A stretch of DNA of 64,000 bases, taken from the NCBI RefSeq assembly GCF_009914755.1, contig NC_060946.1. One strand, given 5' to 3'. The position numbers and the translations under genes were made by a program. Positions 1-5,734 of this stretch are shown in pieces; positions within the stretch are counted from its first letter, which is position 1, and each line of letters opens with the position of its first letter. A model generated the notes under the pieces. That model was not told the DNA's origin. It saw only the letters and a program-made list of their open reading frames with translations, and made no database searches. The DNA is from the human T2T-CHM13v2.0 reference genome, Homo sapiens.

Positions 1-800
1 GAACCAGATGGAGCTCAGATCAGATAGACCTCTGAGCAAGAAGGAGCTCCAAACAAAATGGAACTTGGAGCAGATGTTGCTGGTGTAAGATGGAGCTCAG
101 AGCAGATGGTACTCAGAGCAAGAGGGAGCTCAGAATGATTGGCACTCTGAACATTGCTCTGAGCAATTGGAGCTCTGAGCAAGATGCAGCTCAGAGCAGA
201 CAGAGCTCTGAGCAAAAAAGGAGCTCTAAGCAAGATGGAGTTTGGAGGAGACGTTGCTTGGTTTTAGTTGGAGCTCAGAACAAAACGGAGCCCACAGTGA
301 TTACAGCTCCAAGCAAGGCAGAGCTCAGAGCACATGTAGCTCAGAGTAAGATGAGCTCTGTCCACATGGTGCTCAGAGCAAAATGGAGCTAGAAGTGATT
401 GGAGCTCCCAGCAAGATGGGGCTTGGAGTGATTGGAACTCCTAGCAAGATGGAGCTCAAAGTGGATGGATCTCTGACTAGATGGAGCTCTGAGTAAGATG
501 AATGTCTATGCAGATGTTGCTCACAGCAAGATAGTGCTTGGAGCGATTGGCACTTCGAGCAAGATGGAGCTTGGAGCAGATGGAGCTCTGAGCAAGATGG
601 AGCTTGGAGTAGATAGAGCTTGGAGCAAGAAGGAGCTCCAAGCAAGATGGAGCTTGCAGCAGGTGCTTCTCAGTGTAAGATGGAGCTCAGAGAAGATGAT
701 GCTCAGAGCAAGGTTGAGCTCAGGGTGATTGGCACTCCAAACATTGCTCTGAGCCCATTGGAGCTCTGAGCAAGAAGGTGGGAAGTGAGCAAGAAGGTGA
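1..800. repeat. Degenerate GAGCTC-rich minisatellite (~33-bp unit made of 16/17-bp subunits), running off the window start
   Basis: Unit such as gagcaagatggagcttg+gagcagatggagctct recurs throughout. The overlapping ORFs here show 11-aa periodicity (QAPSCSELHLL). Confidence 0.85.
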
Positions 801-806
801 AGAAGT

Positions 807-3800
807 GATACATTCCCACAGAACATTACAAGTTTAGCGGAAGCTATTATTGAATGTAAAGAGAAGAATGCCCCAGAATTCTATGTGGATTGTCGGGACA
901 ATACTCATTTCTGTAATCAGGCCTACTTTCTTTTAAAAAGTTTATCATATCAAACCTCACAAGGACAACCAGAACTCTGCGATATCCACTCTACAAACCT
1001 CAGACCCCTACAGTGTAGTAAAGGTGGCAGCCAAGATAGAAAGACAGAAACACACTGTTTGATGACCAGTCTTTGGAAGTTGAGACAGCAAATGTGGATT
1101 TACTCAGATTATTTTCCTGTCAGCACCTCCAGGTGTTATTTTGATGGTACTTTGCATTGGGCTGATGACACAATGGGGAAACATAAACTGCTGACGCTGG
1201 ACTTCAGCAGTACAGTAACAGCCATGTGCAAGGCCATTGAAAAAGTAAAGACTGGTGGTTACATTGCCACGTGTTTTTCTGCATGGCATCATCATCTTAA
1301 CTATGGACTTTATGTGCTTTCACAGCAAGATGTTTCTAGTATTTAGAAATGGACCTTATGCATTGTATACTTCCTAAGAGCTTGGAAAGCTCTCACCCAG
1401 GTACTACCAAATGCCAGACATCTCTCTATGTGGGCCATTTTCTGCCACAGCCAGAATTCATTCTGGGTGACATGCTGTTCTTGGCTGCTAAGGAAGTGAT
1501 GTGGGGGAGCCAGGTGTCTCTCGCTGTCTGTGAGTCTATGGGAAAAAGGAGAATACTGAAAGGCACTAAGTTTACTGCCACGTTTAGAGGAGCTTTGTCA
1601 AGGCAACACAAGAGTGTTGTAGTCCTTTGTGGCCAACACCAACCTGAGTTTTTACAGCAGTTGTTGCATAATGATCACAGTCACATTCAAGTTCACTTTC
1701 TAAATCTTAGGTTCTACAAAAACTCTGTCTGATAATGTCCTATAGACCTTTCGGTAGCTAAAATCAATGAGTTTGAAAAATAATTTGAATTTGGCTTGCT
1801 CACCTTTTCAGCAGAATGCACTTGTGAGTCCTGCTCTGTCATTGTATTTTACATGTGTGGCTGTCCCTCTTGCTGTGTTGGAAGTCAGTGTTCCAGAATG
1901 TTAACTTCTACAAATACCTATGTATAGAGCAAAGAGAAAACTCTTCAAGTCAAAAGAGTGTATATTATTTCAGGGCAGCTCTCTAGCCTTGGATTTGAAA
2001 CTATAGTATTTGTTACACAGAGAGAAGATGGTTCTTTTTTGTATTTTATTTTTAATGTTTGTGGGTACATAGTATTTATGGAGTACATGAGATGTTTTGA
2101 CAAGGGCATTCAATGTGAAAAAAAACACATCCTAGAGAATGGGGTATCCCCTCAGTGATTCTTTGAGTTACAAATATTCCAATTACACTCTTTATGTTAT
2201 TTTCAAATATATGATTAAGTTATTATTGACTATAGTCACCTGGGTTTGCTATCAAATAGTAGGTTTTTATTATATATTATTTCTTTTTTGTTTTTTGTAT
2301 CCATTAACAATTCCTGCCTCCCCCTCACTCTCTCACTACCCTTCCCAAGCTCTGGTAATCATCCTTCTACTCTCTATGTCCATGAGTTTAATTGTTTTTA
2401 TTTTTAGATCCCGGAAATAAGCGAGAACACATGATGTTTGTATTTCTGTGCCTGGCTTATTTTTCTTGACATAATCATCTTCAGTTCCATCCATGTTGTT
2501 GCAAATGACAGGCTTTCATTTTTATGGCTGAATAGTACTCCACTGTGTATATGTACCACATTTTCTTCATTCATCTGTTGATGGACACTTAGGTTGCTTT
2601 CAAATATTAGTAATTGTAAACAGTGCTGCAGCAAACCTAGGAGTGCAGAAATCTCTTTGATATACTCATTTCCTTTCTTTTGGGTATATACCAAGCAGTG
2701 GGATTTTTGGATCATATGGTAGTATATCTGTTTTTTTTCAGGAAACTCCAAACTGTTCAAGGAGATAGTTCTGTTGTGATTACTTCATTGAGAAATTTAA
2801 CTTATGAGCAGTTGAAAGGAATGCAAGTTGCTGCAAAATCAGAATGAAGAGTGCAAAACGACCAAGCTACAATGTTTTGTCATTATTCACTCTGATGTGA
2901 AAAAGGCAGTGAATTTAATAGAAAATAACTTCGTAGAGCAAAATCTCAGGTGTGTTTTTTTAGTGCCGCAGTCTTGGATGATGGGTTCCTAGAAGCTCTC
3001 AACATCTCTTCTTAATTGGAGAAAGTGTTAAGCCCCAAAGTAGCTGGAGCAGTACATCTTCAATTTTTGACAAGAAAGCAGGAACTTGATTACTTTGAGT
3101 GCTATTCATTAGTTTCTGCTTTCATTGAGAATGCAACAAAAGCCAACTAGGCTGCTGCTAACTCCTTGCTGGACTTCTTCTGCCACTGTCACAGGAACTG
3201 TAATCTCACTGGACAATTAACTAGGGAGTCTTTCATCTTGAGTGACTGCTGCACAAATGATCTTCAAAGCATTTTAGCCACCAGAGGAATTCTCTTGAAA
3301 TACCCAAAATCCATCAGTATCTTGAATCATGCTGGATTTTGAAGAATTCTTAACAAGCCATGTAAAGGGGGCTCTCTGGCCTTGAAATAGTGATGTTTTT
3401 TATACAGAAAGGAGAATGCAGAATGGTCAGACTACCATGCACTGTTAAATTTGATTTCAAGAAATTACAGGAAAACTTTCCAAAGTTCCATCTCACAGAA
3501 ATTATTTTTACAAAGAATTCCAAGATAAGTTTAGTTTTATGGAAGACTTTTATGTGGTTTTTACTCACTCTTCATCTCAGACATCAACAGATGATTACAT
3601 CACTTATTTAGCTAGTAAATTTATTAATATAAAAACTCAGAGACATTCCAATATCCACATTGCTTACACCATTAGTCATAGATTCAGTGTCAGCTATGAC
3701 AATTGAAAATAAGCTGTTTTGTGATTTAAAGGTTTAAATTTCTCTAACCAAACTGCTTGATCCAGATGCAGGACTGCAAATGTTAATATTTGTTCTGGAA

Positions 3801-3821
3801 GAACAATCAAATAAGACTTAA
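807..3821 (+). pseudogene. Decayed animal type I polyketide synthase, C-terminal half (ER-like, KR, ACP), interrupted by an L1
   Basis: ER-like segment LLTLDFSSTVTAMCKAIEKVKTG (from 1188). Rossmann-like VYIISGQLSSLGFET (1958-2002). KR core SAAVLDDG..LEKVLSPKVAGAVHL..ELDYFECYS..AN*AAANSLLDFF (2962-3180). ACP LVIDSVSAMTIENKL..KLLDP (3672-3764), then stop at 3819-3821. Many frameshifts and stops. Confidence 0.85.
2036..2760 (-). mobile_element. L1 3' end (L1MA/L1PB-type) inserted in the PKS KR domain
   Basis: T-rich tail at the left end, L1 3'UTR/ORF2-end sequence, diverged TSD gaagatggttct (2024-2035) / ggagatagttct (2761-2772). Confidence 0.85.
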
Positions 3822-5734
3822 GAGGAAAAGGAATGGCCACAATCCACCTGAAATTTTTTTTTAAAAAGTGTGCAGCCTACTAAATCAGAATGAAAATAGA
3901 AGTACAAGATTATAAACAAAATGCAATCAAACTTTTCTTAAGCTTACCTAAAGTTATTTCATCTGAAAATTTCAAGCAACTTTGTTCAACATTAAATTGA
4001 CAATCTAAACTAACAAGTCTTTTGAATTTATGCATGGTAGTAAACATTCTCTCTATTAACTTTATTACCTAAGGCTAAACCTAAAATTTTTAAGCAAAAT
4101 TAGAAAAATAGTCTTCACTCATCAAAAAATAAAGTTTGTTACATTTAGTATTTTCCCAATAAAATTGGTCGTTCTTGGTTTTTTATTTGGAGAGTCTGTG
4201 CAAAATGTCACTAAAAATAAATTAGCACTAGAAATTATTTCTAAATACCAAAAAAAAAAAAAATGAAGAATGGTTTCACAAAGAAAAAAAGAAAACTTTC
4301 TTAATTAGCAGAGTATCATCTCTGTGATTTTTGTGATTATTTGATCAGTGTGCTGAGATGGATACAATGGCAAGTAATGACAAAATTAAAATAAGCATGC
4401 AGATTTTTTTAAATTAAGTGCCAAAAAATAATGGGTCGTGCAAAGCCCTTAAAAACACTGTGGCCTAATTCTAAAGTTTTTTGCTACTATGCTACATCAC
4501 ACCCAACATCAGTTAAGTGCTCATTCTGTGACAGGTAGTACATTACACTTTAGCAAACTACACAAGACCCCTATGTGATAATATGCTTCGGGGTTGTAAG
4601 GTTGGGTGCGTTTAGTAGTCTTGAATTTTCTGGGAGTATACAAACCCAATATTAGTCTAGATGCCCAAAGATCTATTTAGACGTCAAAGTAGAATGGAGA
4701 GAAATCTTGACCACAGGAAGCTGTGTTGTGGCATTTATTTTGAAATTATTTTTTCTTGATTTTTTTGCCTTTTAATTCTTTTGTGAGTTTTATAATGCAC
4801 AGAATATTTTTAAATTATTATATATATAAACTGATTAGTCTTCAATTTAAACTTACACCTCTGGGGTCTTACTTGGGTTTCTCCTAACAATATTATACAC
4901 ATATTTGCAATAATTTCTCTCATACTGCTTTTAACTCATTTAATTTTTCAACTTTTTAAGAATAACAAAAGTGATATTAACTGTAAAAATGCTGAAGTGA
5001 CATATGAATTTATGAAGTGCATATGTATTTTTTATTTTACCAATGAGATGGGAGAAATGCTGTCTTATATTTTAACATACATTTTGGCCATTACACAGAT
5101 GAAGCAACTTTTCATTTGTTAATACATAGCATACGTTTTCTTCTGTGTAATTCCTCTTTATATTCTTTGCTCATTTTCCCACTGGGATTTGCAAGTTCTT
5201 TATTATTTGATAATCTCTATACATTCTGAATATCCATTTTTTTGTTATGTATACCATGTAAATATTTTCTTCTAATTTGTTATTTGTCTCAATGGTATTT
5301 ATCAAGTGTTTGCTAAAAATGAGTTTGTTTAGTTAGTAAAATTTGTCTGTCTTTTACTTCATGATATTTATATTTCATGTCATGAGGAAAAGGCATGAAT
5401 ATTTTAAAAACTTCCTTGTAGTATTAATTTTATTTTTTATTTCATTCTTTAAGTTATTTGAAATTTATTGTTTATTTCTTCAAATTCCAAATAATAACCA
5501 ACTTTCTCAAAGTAATACTTCTTTCTACTGATTTCAAATGTTACATTTGTCTTCTCTGAAGTTCTTGTCTATTTGATACCTGATGGTCACACTACTGCTG
5601 TGGATGTGCTTCGTACCACCACAGTACTGCAGGGTTATAAGATTATCTGATAGCCAATAGAAGCAGACCTCTACTCACTGTCATTCTTTTTTCTTTTGGA
5701 GAAGAAAGTTAGCTATTTTTATCTGGGTTCTCAA

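What the first reader, a model, noticed from the sequence alone, without database searches (positions are those of the whole stretch)
807..3821. Fossil vertebrate-type polyketide synthase (ER-like, KR, ACP) hidden in a human pericentromeric lncRNA region
Seen: on one strand and in canonical order, fragments read as an ER/GroES-like segment (SDYFPVS 1104-1124; LLTLDFSSTVTAMCKAIEKVKTG from 1188), a KR nucleotide-binding strand-helix (VYIISGQLSSLGFET, 1958), the KR core (AAVLDDG, SPKVAGAVHL, ELDYFECYS, AN*AAANSLLD, IN*G) and an ACP (LVIDS, Ser codon 3684). Known: these are standard type I PKS/FAS motifs. YAAANS-type KR and a terminal ACP with no TE fit the animal PKS clade (budgerigar MuPKS, fish pks1); FASN has YGFANS, a TE domain and high GC. 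Inference: this is a relic of the vertebrate PKS thought to be missing from humans. The ORF track misses the KR core and ACP, so it is probably unannotated.
Basis: partly seen in the sequence, partly recalled or inferred. Interest (0 to 1): 0.95.

Follow-up and report, generated by a model that had tools for sequence, protein, structure and literature searches.

The report
Dead polyketide synthase gene fragment
This stretch of human chromosome 22 holds the decayed tail end of a polyketide synthase gene that fish, birds, reptiles and marsupials still use but placental mammals were thought to have lost without trace.

Summary
The core of the finding is real. Window 2953-3207 matches the Pfam KR model at 55.4 bits (E 1.2e-11, whole-genome search), better than any single FASN exon. 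Older copies on chr16 and chr13 keep the catalytic motif (NYAAANS / TYTAANS), an LGIDS-type carrier-protein motif and a shared stop about 45 codons after the serine, so the order is KR, ACP, end, with no thioesterase. The 'ER-like' part is not supported: no ADH_N, ADH_zinc_N_2, PDB or Atlas match, and published vertebrate PKSs lack ER. The relic is the 3' part of the giant last exon of a vertebrate type I PKS. It travels with ANKRD26-derived duplications to chr13, chr16, chr2, chr14 and chr22. The copies evolve neutrally. I could not place the window's own KR and ACP on a tree, because no vertebrate KR-ACP sequence was retrievable. Nothing on it was found in the papers searched; the KS part exists only as an automatic database name (LINC00614).

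The parts
805..2035 (+). 5' segment of the exon-6 relic. By spacing it is the DH-to-KR interdomain region (about medaka residues 1324-1730).
   Evidence: DNA homology to chr16:52263886-52263428 (window 805-1257, 82%) and chr16:39166261-39165523 (window 1316-2035, 81%). No domain model hit. Spacing.
2036..2772 (.). Interspersed-repeat insertion that splits the KR domain. I take it for an L1 3' end from recall; no tool confirmed the class.
   Evidence: 9159 first-look candidates genome-wide, 40 scored at 78-82% identity; the chr16 copy has it at the same site, 39164785-39165523. One 2165-bp alignment block chr16 to chr22 runs across it. Masked 2158-2311 and 2476-2634. Pfam on its 118-aa ORF gave 0 families.
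2773..3339 (+). Rest of the KR domain. The frame shifts between 2776-2844, 2816-2989 and 2929-3339; the HMM match is 2953-3207.
   Evidence: PF08659 55.4 bits, E 1.2e-11, model positions 85-168. Piece 3016-3147 scores 30.9 bits. PDB best matches are PKS ketoreductases.
3013..3015 (+). In-frame stop TAA inside KR, at the same codon as a TGA in the chr16 copy; probably older than the chr16/chr22 split.
   Evidence: Alignment; translation.
3148..3150 (+). TAG at the catalytic tyrosine codon of KR. The codon is TAT in chr16 and chr13 and GAG in chr2.
   Evidence: Alignment; chr16 and chr13 translations.
3211..3216 (+). Site of a 4-bp deletion (frameshift) that destroys the SINW motif. It is present in chr22 and chr2 and absent in chr16 and chr13.
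   Evidence: Alignment.
3340..3632 (+). KR-to-ACP linker, decayed.
   Evidence: Collinear DNA homology with the chr16, chr13 and chr2 copies.
3633..3818 (+). ACP relic. The phosphopantetheine serine codon is 3684-3686 and there is an internal stop at 3735-3737.
   Evidence: Translation. chr16 LGIDSM and chr13 GIDSM versions score PP-binding E 0.041 and 0.044. The profile hits only carrier proteins, 6 of 6.
3819..3821 (+). TAA that is probably the original stop codon of the gene, 45 codons after the serine (medaka: 41).
   Evidence: The same frame end appears in the chr16, chr13 and chr22 copies. Medaka numbers.
3822..4300 (+). 3' flank shared by all copies; used as the neutral yardstick.
   Evidence: K2P distances.

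Best explanation
Window 805-3821 is a non-functional remnant of the last, giant exon of a vertebrate type I polyketide synthase (domain order KS-AT-DH-KR-ACP, six exons). It covers the interdomain region, KR, ACP and the original stop codon. A repeat insertion, stops and frameshifts break it.

The parent gene lay at 10p12 next to ANKRD26 and YME1L1, where its five small KS exons still lie. A 5'-truncated piece of exon 6 (from mid-AT to the stop), joined to the tail of an ANKRD26 copy, was carried by old segmental duplications to chr13 (beside ANKRD26P3) and chr16 (beside ANKRD26P1). It also went into the POTE-linked duplicon that later spread to chr2, chr14 (twice) and chr22.

Shown: domain identity of KR; PKS rather than FASN type; copy map; adjacency to ANKRD26 paralogues; neutral drift; KS exons at 10p12 and their phylogeny.

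Inferred: that the exon-6 pieces and the chr10 KS exons come from one and the same gene; the order of deletion and duplication; the ages. The element does nothing today and lies in an intron of the lncRNA DUXAP8.
For: KR:
- 55.4 bits in the window, 59.8 bits on chr16.
- a 77-aa unbroken chr16 piece scores 55.7 bits.
- best solved relatives are PKS ketoreductases at 34.1 bits, against FASN at 24.5.

ACP and end of gene.

Gene structure:
- Parrot PKS has six exons, with residues 428-1957 all in exon 6 and residues 112 and 243 in exons 3 and 5. Medaka has six exons and 2051 aa.
- The human KS pieces fall into five exons with matching boundaries, and KR-ACP is intron-free.
- Spacing from AT to the KR Tyr is 1050 codons against 1066 in medaka.

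Copies: chr14 twice at about 100%, chr2 96%, chr16 80-83%, chr13 75-76%.

Adjacency:
- On chr13 the relic begins about 0.5 kb past the end of homology to the ANKRD26 3' end. On chr16 it lies 1.3 kb past ANKRD26P1.
- The chr22, chr14 and chr2 copies lie 66-73 kb downstream of POTEH, POTEM, POTEG and POTEKP.

Synteny:
- Pks and Ptchd3 lie between Rab18 and Acbd5 in wall lizard.
- YME1L1, MASTL, ACBD5, ABI1, PDSS1, MKX and PTCHD3 are named as flanks of animal PKS homologues (figure legend).
- The human order is PDSS1, ABI1, KS exons, ANKRD26, YME1L1, MASTL, ACBD5, PTCHD3, RAB18, MKX.

KS exons:
- 56-80% identical to vertebrate PKS fragments, where FASN exons give 32-65%.
- Tree: with orangutan 100/99, with shrew 99/94, with echidna 98/94, vertebrate PKS clade 100/100.

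Neutrality:
- Coding and flank K2P are alike (0.168 vs 0.201; 0.320 vs 0.354).
- Substitutions are even over codon positions (26/24/18, 26/26/20, 22/24/18; p 0.46-0.64).

Dead before the chr16/chr22 split: shared repeat insertion and a stop at the same codon.
Against: - No vertebrate KR or ACP sequence could be retrieved. The window's own domains are therefore tied to vertebrate PKS only by architecture, spacing, gene structure and linkage, not by a tree (blank; length window 42-135 aa).
- chr10 holds no exon-6 DNA in 110 kb: 0 nhmmer hits for 6 of 6 relic queries and only repeat matches by blastn.
- No KS exon lies within 20-30 kb upstream of the chr13 or chr16 relics. No locus therefore shows both halves together.
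- The KS C-terminal half and the first part of AT were found nowhere.
- Lizards have several Pks copies at this locus, so the two halves could come from different paralogues.
- The N-terminal half of KR, DH and the interdomain region gave no model hit.
- AT on chr13 passes its cut-off only in the read-through genome search (42.7 bits), not as a single stop-free piece (19.7 bits against a cut-off of 32.7).
- A few regions of the reference are closed, so copies may be missing from the map.
Confidence: 0.85

Rival explanations
1. The exon-6 relics (window, chr16, chr13) and the chr10 KS exons are remnants of two different PKS paralogues that once sat side by side at the ancestral locus, not two halves of one gene.
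For: No locus has both halves. Lizards carry five full-length Pks copies at the syntenic locus. The chr10 exons are far less decayed (one frameshift, no stop in 253 aligned codons) than the window's KR-ACP (stops at 3013, 3148 and 3735, frameshifts and a repeat insert).
Against: Two complementary deletions of neutral DNA explain the same data. The ANKRD26-linked unit starts inside exon 6, as expected if a deletion joined the ANKRD26 tail to it. Either way the window holds a vertebrate PKS relic.
Confidence: 0.15
2. The segment is a pseudogene copy of human fatty acid synthase (FASN), genomic or processed.
For: FASN is the only annotated human gene with KS, AT, KR and ACP domains, and it shares the KR fold.
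Against: The motif is NYAAANS where FASN reads NYGFANS. PDB scores for FASN are about 10 bits lower than for PKS. The frame ends 45 codons after the ACP serine, where FASN would continue into a thioesterase. There is no ER. The linked KS exons are 35% identical to FASN against 64% to turtle PKS, and FASN is the outgroup in the tree.
Confidence: 0.02
3. The KR-ACP piece entered a primate or early mammalian genome by horizontal transfer from a bacterium or other microbe and has nothing to do with the vertebrate PKS.
For: The closest solved structures are bacterial PKS modules, and no vertebrate KR was available for comparison.
Against: The PDB search listed no vertebrate PKS, so that ranking cannot discriminate. 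The end-of-gene layout and the AT-KR spacing match medaka. The piece always lies beside ANKRD26 paralogues, whose parent lies about 29 kb from vertically inherited KS exons. GC-poor, repeat-invaded, neutral DNA with K2P up to 0.35 between copies is old resident sequence.
Confidence: 0.03
4. The motifs are chance matches in AT-rich non-coding DNA.
Against: KR has E 1.2e-11 genome-wide. Independent old copies keep better versions of the same motifs in the same order.
Confidence: 0.005
5. The segment has a present function, for example the 153-aa ORF at 885-1346 encodes a protein, or the region acts within the DUXAP8 RNA.
For: An unusually long open frame (181 codons without a stop, 801-1343). 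The Atlas holds an ORF prediction from it.
Against: It lies in a DUXAP8 intron, not an exon. There is no family, structure or Atlas relative. The KR-ACP part drifts neutrally. Constraint on 801-1343 itself was not measured.
Confidence: 0.03

Closest known systems
Vertebrate type I polyketide synthase (medaka olpks / zebrafish pks1; budgerigar and parrot PKS, MuPKS)
   Same: KR followed by a C-terminal ACP and a stop about 41-45 residues after the serine, with no TE and no ER. One giant last exon preceded by small KS exons. AT-to-KR spacing 1050 against 1066 residues. Genomic neighbourhood of ABI1, YME1L1, ACBD5, PTCHD3 and RAB18. The linked KS exons fall inside the vertebrate PKS clade.
   Different: Dead and in pieces. 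The window has only the last third or so of the gene. It is interrupted by a repeat, has a stop at the catalytic Tyr codon, and has been copied to five or more pericentromeric sites away from the parent locus. The KS C-terminal half and the start of AT are missing everywhere examined.
Human fatty acid synthase (FASN)
   Same: Same megasynthase superfamily and the same KR and ACP folds.
   Different: FASN has NYGFANS, ER and TE, and many small exons across KR. The relic has NYAAANS, no ER, no TE and no introns from KR to ACP.
'Putative uncharacterized protein encoded by LINC00614' (an automatic name carried by vertebrate KS fragments, including orangutan P0061)
   Same: It is the same thing as the chr10 KS exons: orangutan P0061 pairs with the human chr10 relic at 100/99 support.
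   Different: It covers only the KS exons at 10p12, not the KR-ACP relic of this window. I did not see the human entry itself. No paper in the library uses the name, and it is not in the RefSeq table of this assembly.
Unitary and duplicated pseudogenes of pericentromeric segmental duplications (the NBEAP, BMS1P, TOMM40P and DUXAP neighbours in this window)
   Same: A gene fragment moved with duplicons into pericentromeric DNA and drifting neutrally.
   Different: Its parent gene no longer exists in the species. The splits between the chr13, chr16 and chr22 lineages (K2P 0.17-0.35) are much deeper than the chr22, chr14 and chr2 spread (0.03).

Membership tests
Vertebrate type I PKS (KS-AT-DH-KR-ACP) | KR domain of the PKS/FAS short-chain reductase type with a catalytic Tyr | tested here: met
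   PF08659 at 55.4 bits in the window and 55.7 bits for an unbroken chr16 piece that keeps the Tyr. In the window itself the Tyr codon is TAG.
Vertebrate type I PKS (KS-AT-DH-KR-ACP) | C-terminal ACP with the DS serine motif, and no thioesterase after it | tested here: inconclusive
   LGIDS / GIDS / VIDS in three lineages and a shared stop about 45 codons later. PP-binding is the only family hit but below cut-off, E 0.04. 6 of 6 PDB profile hits are carrier proteins, best E 0.22. The absence of a TE is shown by the shared stop.
Vertebrate type I PKS (KS-AT-DH-KR-ACP) | No ER domain between DH and KR | tested here: met
   No ADH_N or ADH_zinc_N_2 match at any relic locus. No PDB hit for 801-1343. 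Spacing equals that of ER-less medaka PKS.
Vertebrate type I PKS (KS-AT-DH-KR-ACP) | Six-exon gene: small exons for the N-terminal half of KS, one giant last exon for the rest | tested here: met
   Five KS exons on chr10 with boundaries that fit parrot residues 112 (exon 3) and 243 (exon 5). AT to ACP is contiguous on chr13, and KR to ACP is contiguous in the window.
Vertebrate type I PKS (KS-AT-DH-KR-ACP) | Synteny with the ABI1, YME1L1, ACBD5, PTCHD3, RAB18 neighbourhood | tested here: met
   Met directly for the chr10 KS exons. For the window it holds only through linkage of its older copies to ANKRD26 paralogues.
Vertebrate type I PKS (KS-AT-DH-KR-ACP) | Phylogenetic placement of the domain sequences inside the vertebrate PKS clade | tested here: inconclusive
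   Met for the KS exons (100/100 vertebrate clade, mammalian subclade 98/94). Not done for the window's KR and ACP, because no vertebrate KR-ACP sequences were retrievable.
Vertebrate type I PKS (KS-AT-DH-KR-ACP) | DH domain with the HxxxGxxxxP motif | tested here: not met
   PS-DH PF14765 gave 3 matches genome-wide, none at a relic locus. The chr13 candidate piece gave 0 families. DH is not within the window copy. Decay or deletion is the likely reason.
Animal fatty acid synthase (FASN-derived pseudogene) | NYGFANS-type KR motif, ER domain, C-terminal thioesterase, KR split over several exons | tested here: not met
   respectively. KS identity to FASN is 35%.
   No masked stretch of 100 bp or more there. 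Genome-wide DNA search finds only 6-7 places, all relic copies apart from one 63-bp match on chr18. The insert 2036-2772, by contrast, has 9159 candidates. No repeat-family library was available.

The most novel reading that the evidence does not exclude
Placental mammals did not lose the PKS gene in one clean event at their origin. The parent gene at 10p12 may have stayed alive well into eutherian evolution, and may still be alive, or survive as a truncated KS-only product, in some lineages.

The grounds are these. A shrew gene model reads exons 1-5 without a break. It is as close to turtle PKS (67%) as echidna is (65%), and its branch is short (0.10) despite the fast shrew clock. The human KS exons carry only one frameshift. 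The ANKRD26-linked exon-6 copies, in contrast, were dead on arrival and are far more decayed.

If so, the relics give a dated, stepwise record of how a whole biosynthetic capacity left our lineage.
Probability: 0.2. Interest if true: 0.7.

Novelty: new member of a known kind. Interest (0 to 1): 0.55.

Why it matters
Two papers on animal polyketide synthases report no PKS in human or in any placental mammal and infer a loss; one of them asks for a more intense search (passages). The relic is the physical trace of that loss.

It shows that the human lineage inherited the gene vertically. It fixes the ancestral position at 10p12. It also gives material to date the death of the gene against the ANKRD26/POTE duplication burst.

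It is a caution for annotation as well. About 3 kb of recognisable enzyme-coding sequence sits unlabelled in introns of the much-studied lncRNAs DUXAP8, DUXAP9 and DUXAP10. Its chr16 copy is a marker that brackets the arrival of the 13-Mb chr16 satellite block.

It has no expected bearing on human physiology. All human copies examined are broken and drift neutrally.

Tried and rejected
ER reading. Tested with Pfam on the pieces, ADH_zinc_N_2 and ADH_N over the genome, the PDB and the Atlas. Nothing was found, so it is rejected.

KR first strand-helix at 1958. Pfam and the PDB gave nothing. It is kept only as a spacing-compatible candidate.

Retrieving vertebrate KR-ACP sequences. The word search with the 77-aa chr16 KR piece was blank. 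The tool's length window (42-135 aa) makes that uninformative. The other two word searches went to KS.

Looking for exon 6 on chr10. blastn, nhmmer, tblastn with fragments that reach into exon 6 and the genome-wide AT, KR and KS-C models all found none.

Looking for KS exons near the chr13, chr16 and chr22 relics. None were found.

DH. No model hit.

Class of the insert 2036-2772. Pfam on its ORF gave nothing; only its copy number was shown.

Literature:
- 'polyketide synthase' with 'ANKRD26': 0 papers.
- 'polyketide synthase' with 'DUXAP': 0 papers.
- 'LINC00614': 0 papers.
- One search was a badly built query ('pote' matches 'potential') and says nothing.
- Cooke 2017 (Cell) is not held, so what it says about mammals is unseen.
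- Supplements are closed. Hojo's Additional files 5 and 7 and Lin's supplementary lists could hold a mention of mammalian remnants that I could not see.

Papers seen as passages only: PMC10764717, PMC4604110, PMC11739604, PMC10990284, PMC9894158 (one figure legend and text passages) and PMC6531356.

From recall, not from a call:
- that POTE genes derive from ANKRD26;
- the name HSat2 for the chr16 satellite;
- the L1 identity of the insert;
- neutral rates used for ages;
- FASN domain coordinates.

Tree rows. 47 of the 86 hits were used; 39 were left out as short, redundant, or further bacterial and fungal fragments. The human relic and human FASN were added.


Full report
WHAT IS THERE

The decisive one is the ketoreductase core. 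In a six-frame search of the whole reference with Pfam KR (PF08659), window 2953-3207 scores 55.4 bits (E 1.2e-11, model positions 85-168), read through a TAA at 3013 and a TAG at 3148. The best single FASN exons reach 39.6-39.8 bits (22 matches of 27 candidates scored). The stop-free piece 3016-3147 alone passes the Pfam cut-off (30.9 bits against 22.6). The other nine pieces I submitted gave no meaningful family. Those nine include the 'ER-like' 801-1343, the piece 1340-1729, the 'nucleotide-binding' 1928-2035 and the ACP piece 3633-3734.

OLDER COPIES SETTLE KR AND ACP

The DNA of 760-2035 and 2773-3900 recurs at the following identities:

- chr14, two copies, about 100%
- chr2, 96%
- chr16:39.16 Mb, 80-83%
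- chr16:52.26 Mb, 82% (only window 805-1257)
- chr13:18.453 Mb, 75-76%

The chr16 copy has an unbroken 77-residue KR piece with the catalytic motif NYAAANS and SINW (Pfam KR 55.7 bits). The chr13 copy reads TYTAANS...SINWG (23.2 bits).

Both then show a carrier-protein motif, LGIDSM on chr16 and GIDSM on chr13; the window has VIDSV. In all three lineages the frame ends at the same stop about 45 codons after the serine.

PP-binding is the only Pfam family these ACP pieces hit, but below the cut-off (E 0.041 and 0.044). A profile of the three pieces finds only acyl carrier proteins in the PDB (6 of 6 hits at E<=1, best 0.22). I take ACP as real and C-terminal, with no thioesterase. The formal score remains sub-threshold.

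NOT FASN, AND NO ER

- Human FASN reads NYGFANS at the same position.
- Solved FASN ketoreductases score about 10 bits below modular PKS ones: 24.5 against 34.1 bits for the chr16 piece, and 13.6 against 20 for the window piece.
- The FASN KR matches are split over several exons, while the relic is continuous.
- The ER idea fails every test: no ADH_zinc_N_2 or ADH_N match at any relic locus (13 and 24 matches, all elsewhere), 0 PDB hits at E<=10, and an Atlas best score of 0.78, which is chance level.
- Hojo et al. 2015 (passages) describe medaka PKS as KS-AT-DH-KR-ACP and say that most vertebrate PKSs have these five domains.

Chaining the overlapping copies (chr13 AT part, chr16b, chr16a, window) gives 1050 codons from the end of the AT match to the KR tyrosine. 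The medaka residue numbers give 1066. Window 805-1950 therefore corresponds to about medaka residues 1324-1708, the unannotated stretch between DH and KR.

The candidate first strand-helix of KR at 1958 sits 151 codons before the Tyr codon once the insert is removed. That is the right distance, but it has no statistical support of its own.

THE INSERT

Window 2036-2772 is a high-copy dispersed repeat: 9159 first-look candidates, with the 40 scored copies 78-82% identical. The masked stretches 2158-2311 and 2476-2634 lie inside it.

The chr16 copy has it at the same site, and one alignment block runs across it. The gene piece was therefore already broken before the chr16 and chr22 lineages parted. 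A stop at the same codon (TAA in chr22, TGA in chr16) says the same.

Lesions private to the chr22, chr14 and chr2 lineage are the loss of the Tyr codon (TAG in chr22, GAG in chr2; TAT in chr16 and chr13) and a 4-bp deletion in SINW.

WHERE IT CAME FROM

The KS N-terminal model finds four exon-like matches at chr10:26,994,437-27,002,043 on the minus strand (56.8, 52.9, 52.5 and 19.7 bits). The only other KS-N matches are FASN, OXSM, a HADHB pseudogene on chrX and one weak match on chr6.

With vertebrate fragments as guides, five exons appear:

- exon 1 with a start codon, 27,006,140-27,006,081;
- exons 2 and 3;
- exon 4, with the active-site DSACSSS and one frameshift;
- exon 5.

Their boundaries fit the parrot gene, in which residue 112 is in exon 3, residue 243 in exon 5, and residues 428-1957 are all in exon 6 (passages).

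The gene order on chr10 is PDSS1, ABI1, FAM238C, the KS exons, ANKRD26, YME1L1, MASTL, ACBD5, PTCHD3, RAB18, MKX. In wall lizards the Pks and Ptchd3 copies lie between Rab18 and Acbd5 (passages). A figure legend on animal PKS homologues names YME1L1, MASTL, ACBD5, ABI1, PDSS1, MKX and PTCHD3 as flanking genes.

KS EXONS: VERTICAL DESCENT

- Exon 4 is 80% identical to a sturgeon PKS fragment and 75% to a lizard one (2 of 2 candidates scored, 32 left out as sample-only).
- A second search from the lizard fragment gave 86 proteins of 103 candidates, with 447 left out. These include orangutan, shrew (a eutherian), echidna, turtle, birds, lizards, a frog, lungfish, sharks, many fish, molluscs, bacteria and fungi.
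- In a tree of 49 rows (47 of those 86, plus the human relic and human FASN), human pairs with orangutan (100/99). Shrew joins next (99/94), then echidna (98/94). This clade sits inside a vertebrate PKS clade (100/100) that is sister to mollusc PKSs (100/99), with FASN outside.
- Over exons 1-5 the human relic is 64% identical to turtle PKS and 35% to human FASN.
- Human and orangutan differ at 7 of 105 residues in exons 2-3. By my estimate that is about the neutral expectation.

HOW THE WINDOW'S PIECE GOT TO CHR22

- On chr13 the relic (AT 42.7 bits at 18,455,176-568, then KR and ACP down to 18,453,052) lies on the same strand as ANKRD26P3 and just downstream of it. Homology to the ANKRD26 3' end stops at chr13:18,456,391, which matches chr10:27,033,557.
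- On chr16 the upstream half lies 1.3 kb from ANKRD26P1, and homology stops at the point matching chr10:27,040,320. This is the chr13 layout with a further deletion over the junction.
- The chr22, chr14 and chr2 copies lie 66-73 kb downstream of POTEH, POTEM, POTEG and POTEKP on the same strand. POTE genes descend from ANKRD26 by my recall.

The simplest account is that a copy of the ANKRD26-PKS interval lost everything between the ANKRD26 tail and mid-AT, and was then duplicated again and again.

A second chr13 copy of the AT-DH part (85% identical) sits at 20.479 Mb.

chr10 itself has no exon-6 DNA in the 110 kb examined, and no KS exon lies near the other relics. The link between the two halves is therefore an inference, and a two-paralogue origin remains possible.

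NEUTRAL DRIFT AND AGE

K2P distances in the KR-ACP part and in the 3' flank are alike:

- chr22-chr2: 0.032 and 0.028
- chr22-chr16: 0.168 and 0.201
- chr22-chr13: 0.320 and 0.354
- chr16-chr13: 0.275 and 0.349

Differences are spread evenly over codon positions (26/24/18, 26/26/20, 22/24/18; p 0.46-0.64).

With neutral rates of about 1.1-2.2e-9 per site per year (recall), the chr22-chr2 split is of the order of 7-15 Myr. The chr16 split is about 40-90 Myr and the chr13 split about 70-160 Myr. These are rough figures, and pericentromeric DNA may not keep the average clock.

IS IT KNOWN?

- Hojo 2015 lists human as lacking a type I PKS after TBLASTN, and calls for a more intense search.
- Lin 2024 saw PKSs in marsupials but in no placental mammal.
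- No paper in the library pairs 'polyketide synthase' with ANKRD26 or DUXAP, or mentions LINC00614.
- Many vertebrate KS fragments, including the orangutan one, carry the automatic name 'putative uncharacterized protein encoded by LINC00614'. This implies a human database entry for the chr10 KS part. I did not see that entry, and the name is absent from the RefSeq table of this assembly.
- RefSeq annotates the window's relic only as the intron of DUXAP8 between exons ending at chr22:16,365,058 and starting at 16,389,382.
- Supplements and the Cooke 2017 paper were not available.

VERDICT

This is a real, recognisable and apparently unreported remnant of the vertebrate PKS gene: KR, ACP and the gene's end, without ER. 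It is non-functional. It was brought to chr22 by ANKRD26/POTE-linked duplications from an ancestral locus at 10p12, where the KS exons remain.

It is a new member of a known kind, a pseudogene of a known family whose loss was already inferred. Its interest lies in animal natural-product evolution and in pericentromere history, not in a new mechanism.

Noticed in passing
G000 chr16:52,264,870-52,263,428 and chr16:39,166,261-39,163,651 (loci L020, L019): The chr16 copy of the exon-6 relic is cut in two, with the halves 13.1 Mb apart. Both inner edges, and samples taken at 42, 46 and 50 Mb, are GGAAT-type satellite. The chr22 lineage is continuous across that point (window 1257-1316), so the satellite block entered or expanded there after the chr16/chr22 split.
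   Followed up: partly
G000 chr10:26,994,428-27,006,140 (loci L015, L016, L029): Five KS exons of the PKS survive at 10p12 with a start codon, the active-site cysteine motif, one frameshift and no in-frame stop. The RefSeq ANKRD26 span (to 26,977,274) encloses them, although homology with ANKRD26P3 puts the usual ANKRD26 3' end near 27.034-27.036 Mb.
   Followed up: yes
Protein P0006 (Sorex araneus, 266 aa): A placental mammal has a gene model that reads PKS exons 1-5 without a break and ends in the intron. It is 67% identical to turtle PKS, as close as echidna is. Published surveys report no PKS in placentals.
   Followed up: partly
Protein P0054 (Eleutherodactylus coqui, 186 aa): A frog has a PKS-type KS fragment, although Hojo 2015 lists frogs among the groups lacking pks. 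In the tree it falls among sauropsid fragments, on a 0.66 branch.
   Followed up: no
G000 chr13:20,479,103-20,480,490 (locus L018): A second copy of the chr13 AT-DH part of the relic, 85% identical, inside the lncRNAs LOC105370105 and LOC101928764 ('CCDC144B'-named). The AT model scores 29.6 bits.
   Followed up: partly
window 6-723: A minisatellite with a 16-17-bp unit (about 44 copies, 61% matches) abuts the 5' end of the relic. The relic homology begins at about 805.
   Followed up: no
G000 chr16:39,164,004-39,164,112 (locus L019): The chr16 copy carries an internal duplication of about 110 bp of the KR region, matching window 2773-2882 a second time.
   Followed up: no
G000 chr10:27,015,983-27,017,338 and 26,995,164-26,996,519; chr13:18,450,238-18,451,578 and 18,477,320-996; chr16:52,284,286-52,285,623: A 1.36-kb element occurs twice near the chr10 KS exons, once between exons 4 and 5, and again beside the chr13 and chr16 relics (70-89% identity). 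It was not identified.
   Followed up: no
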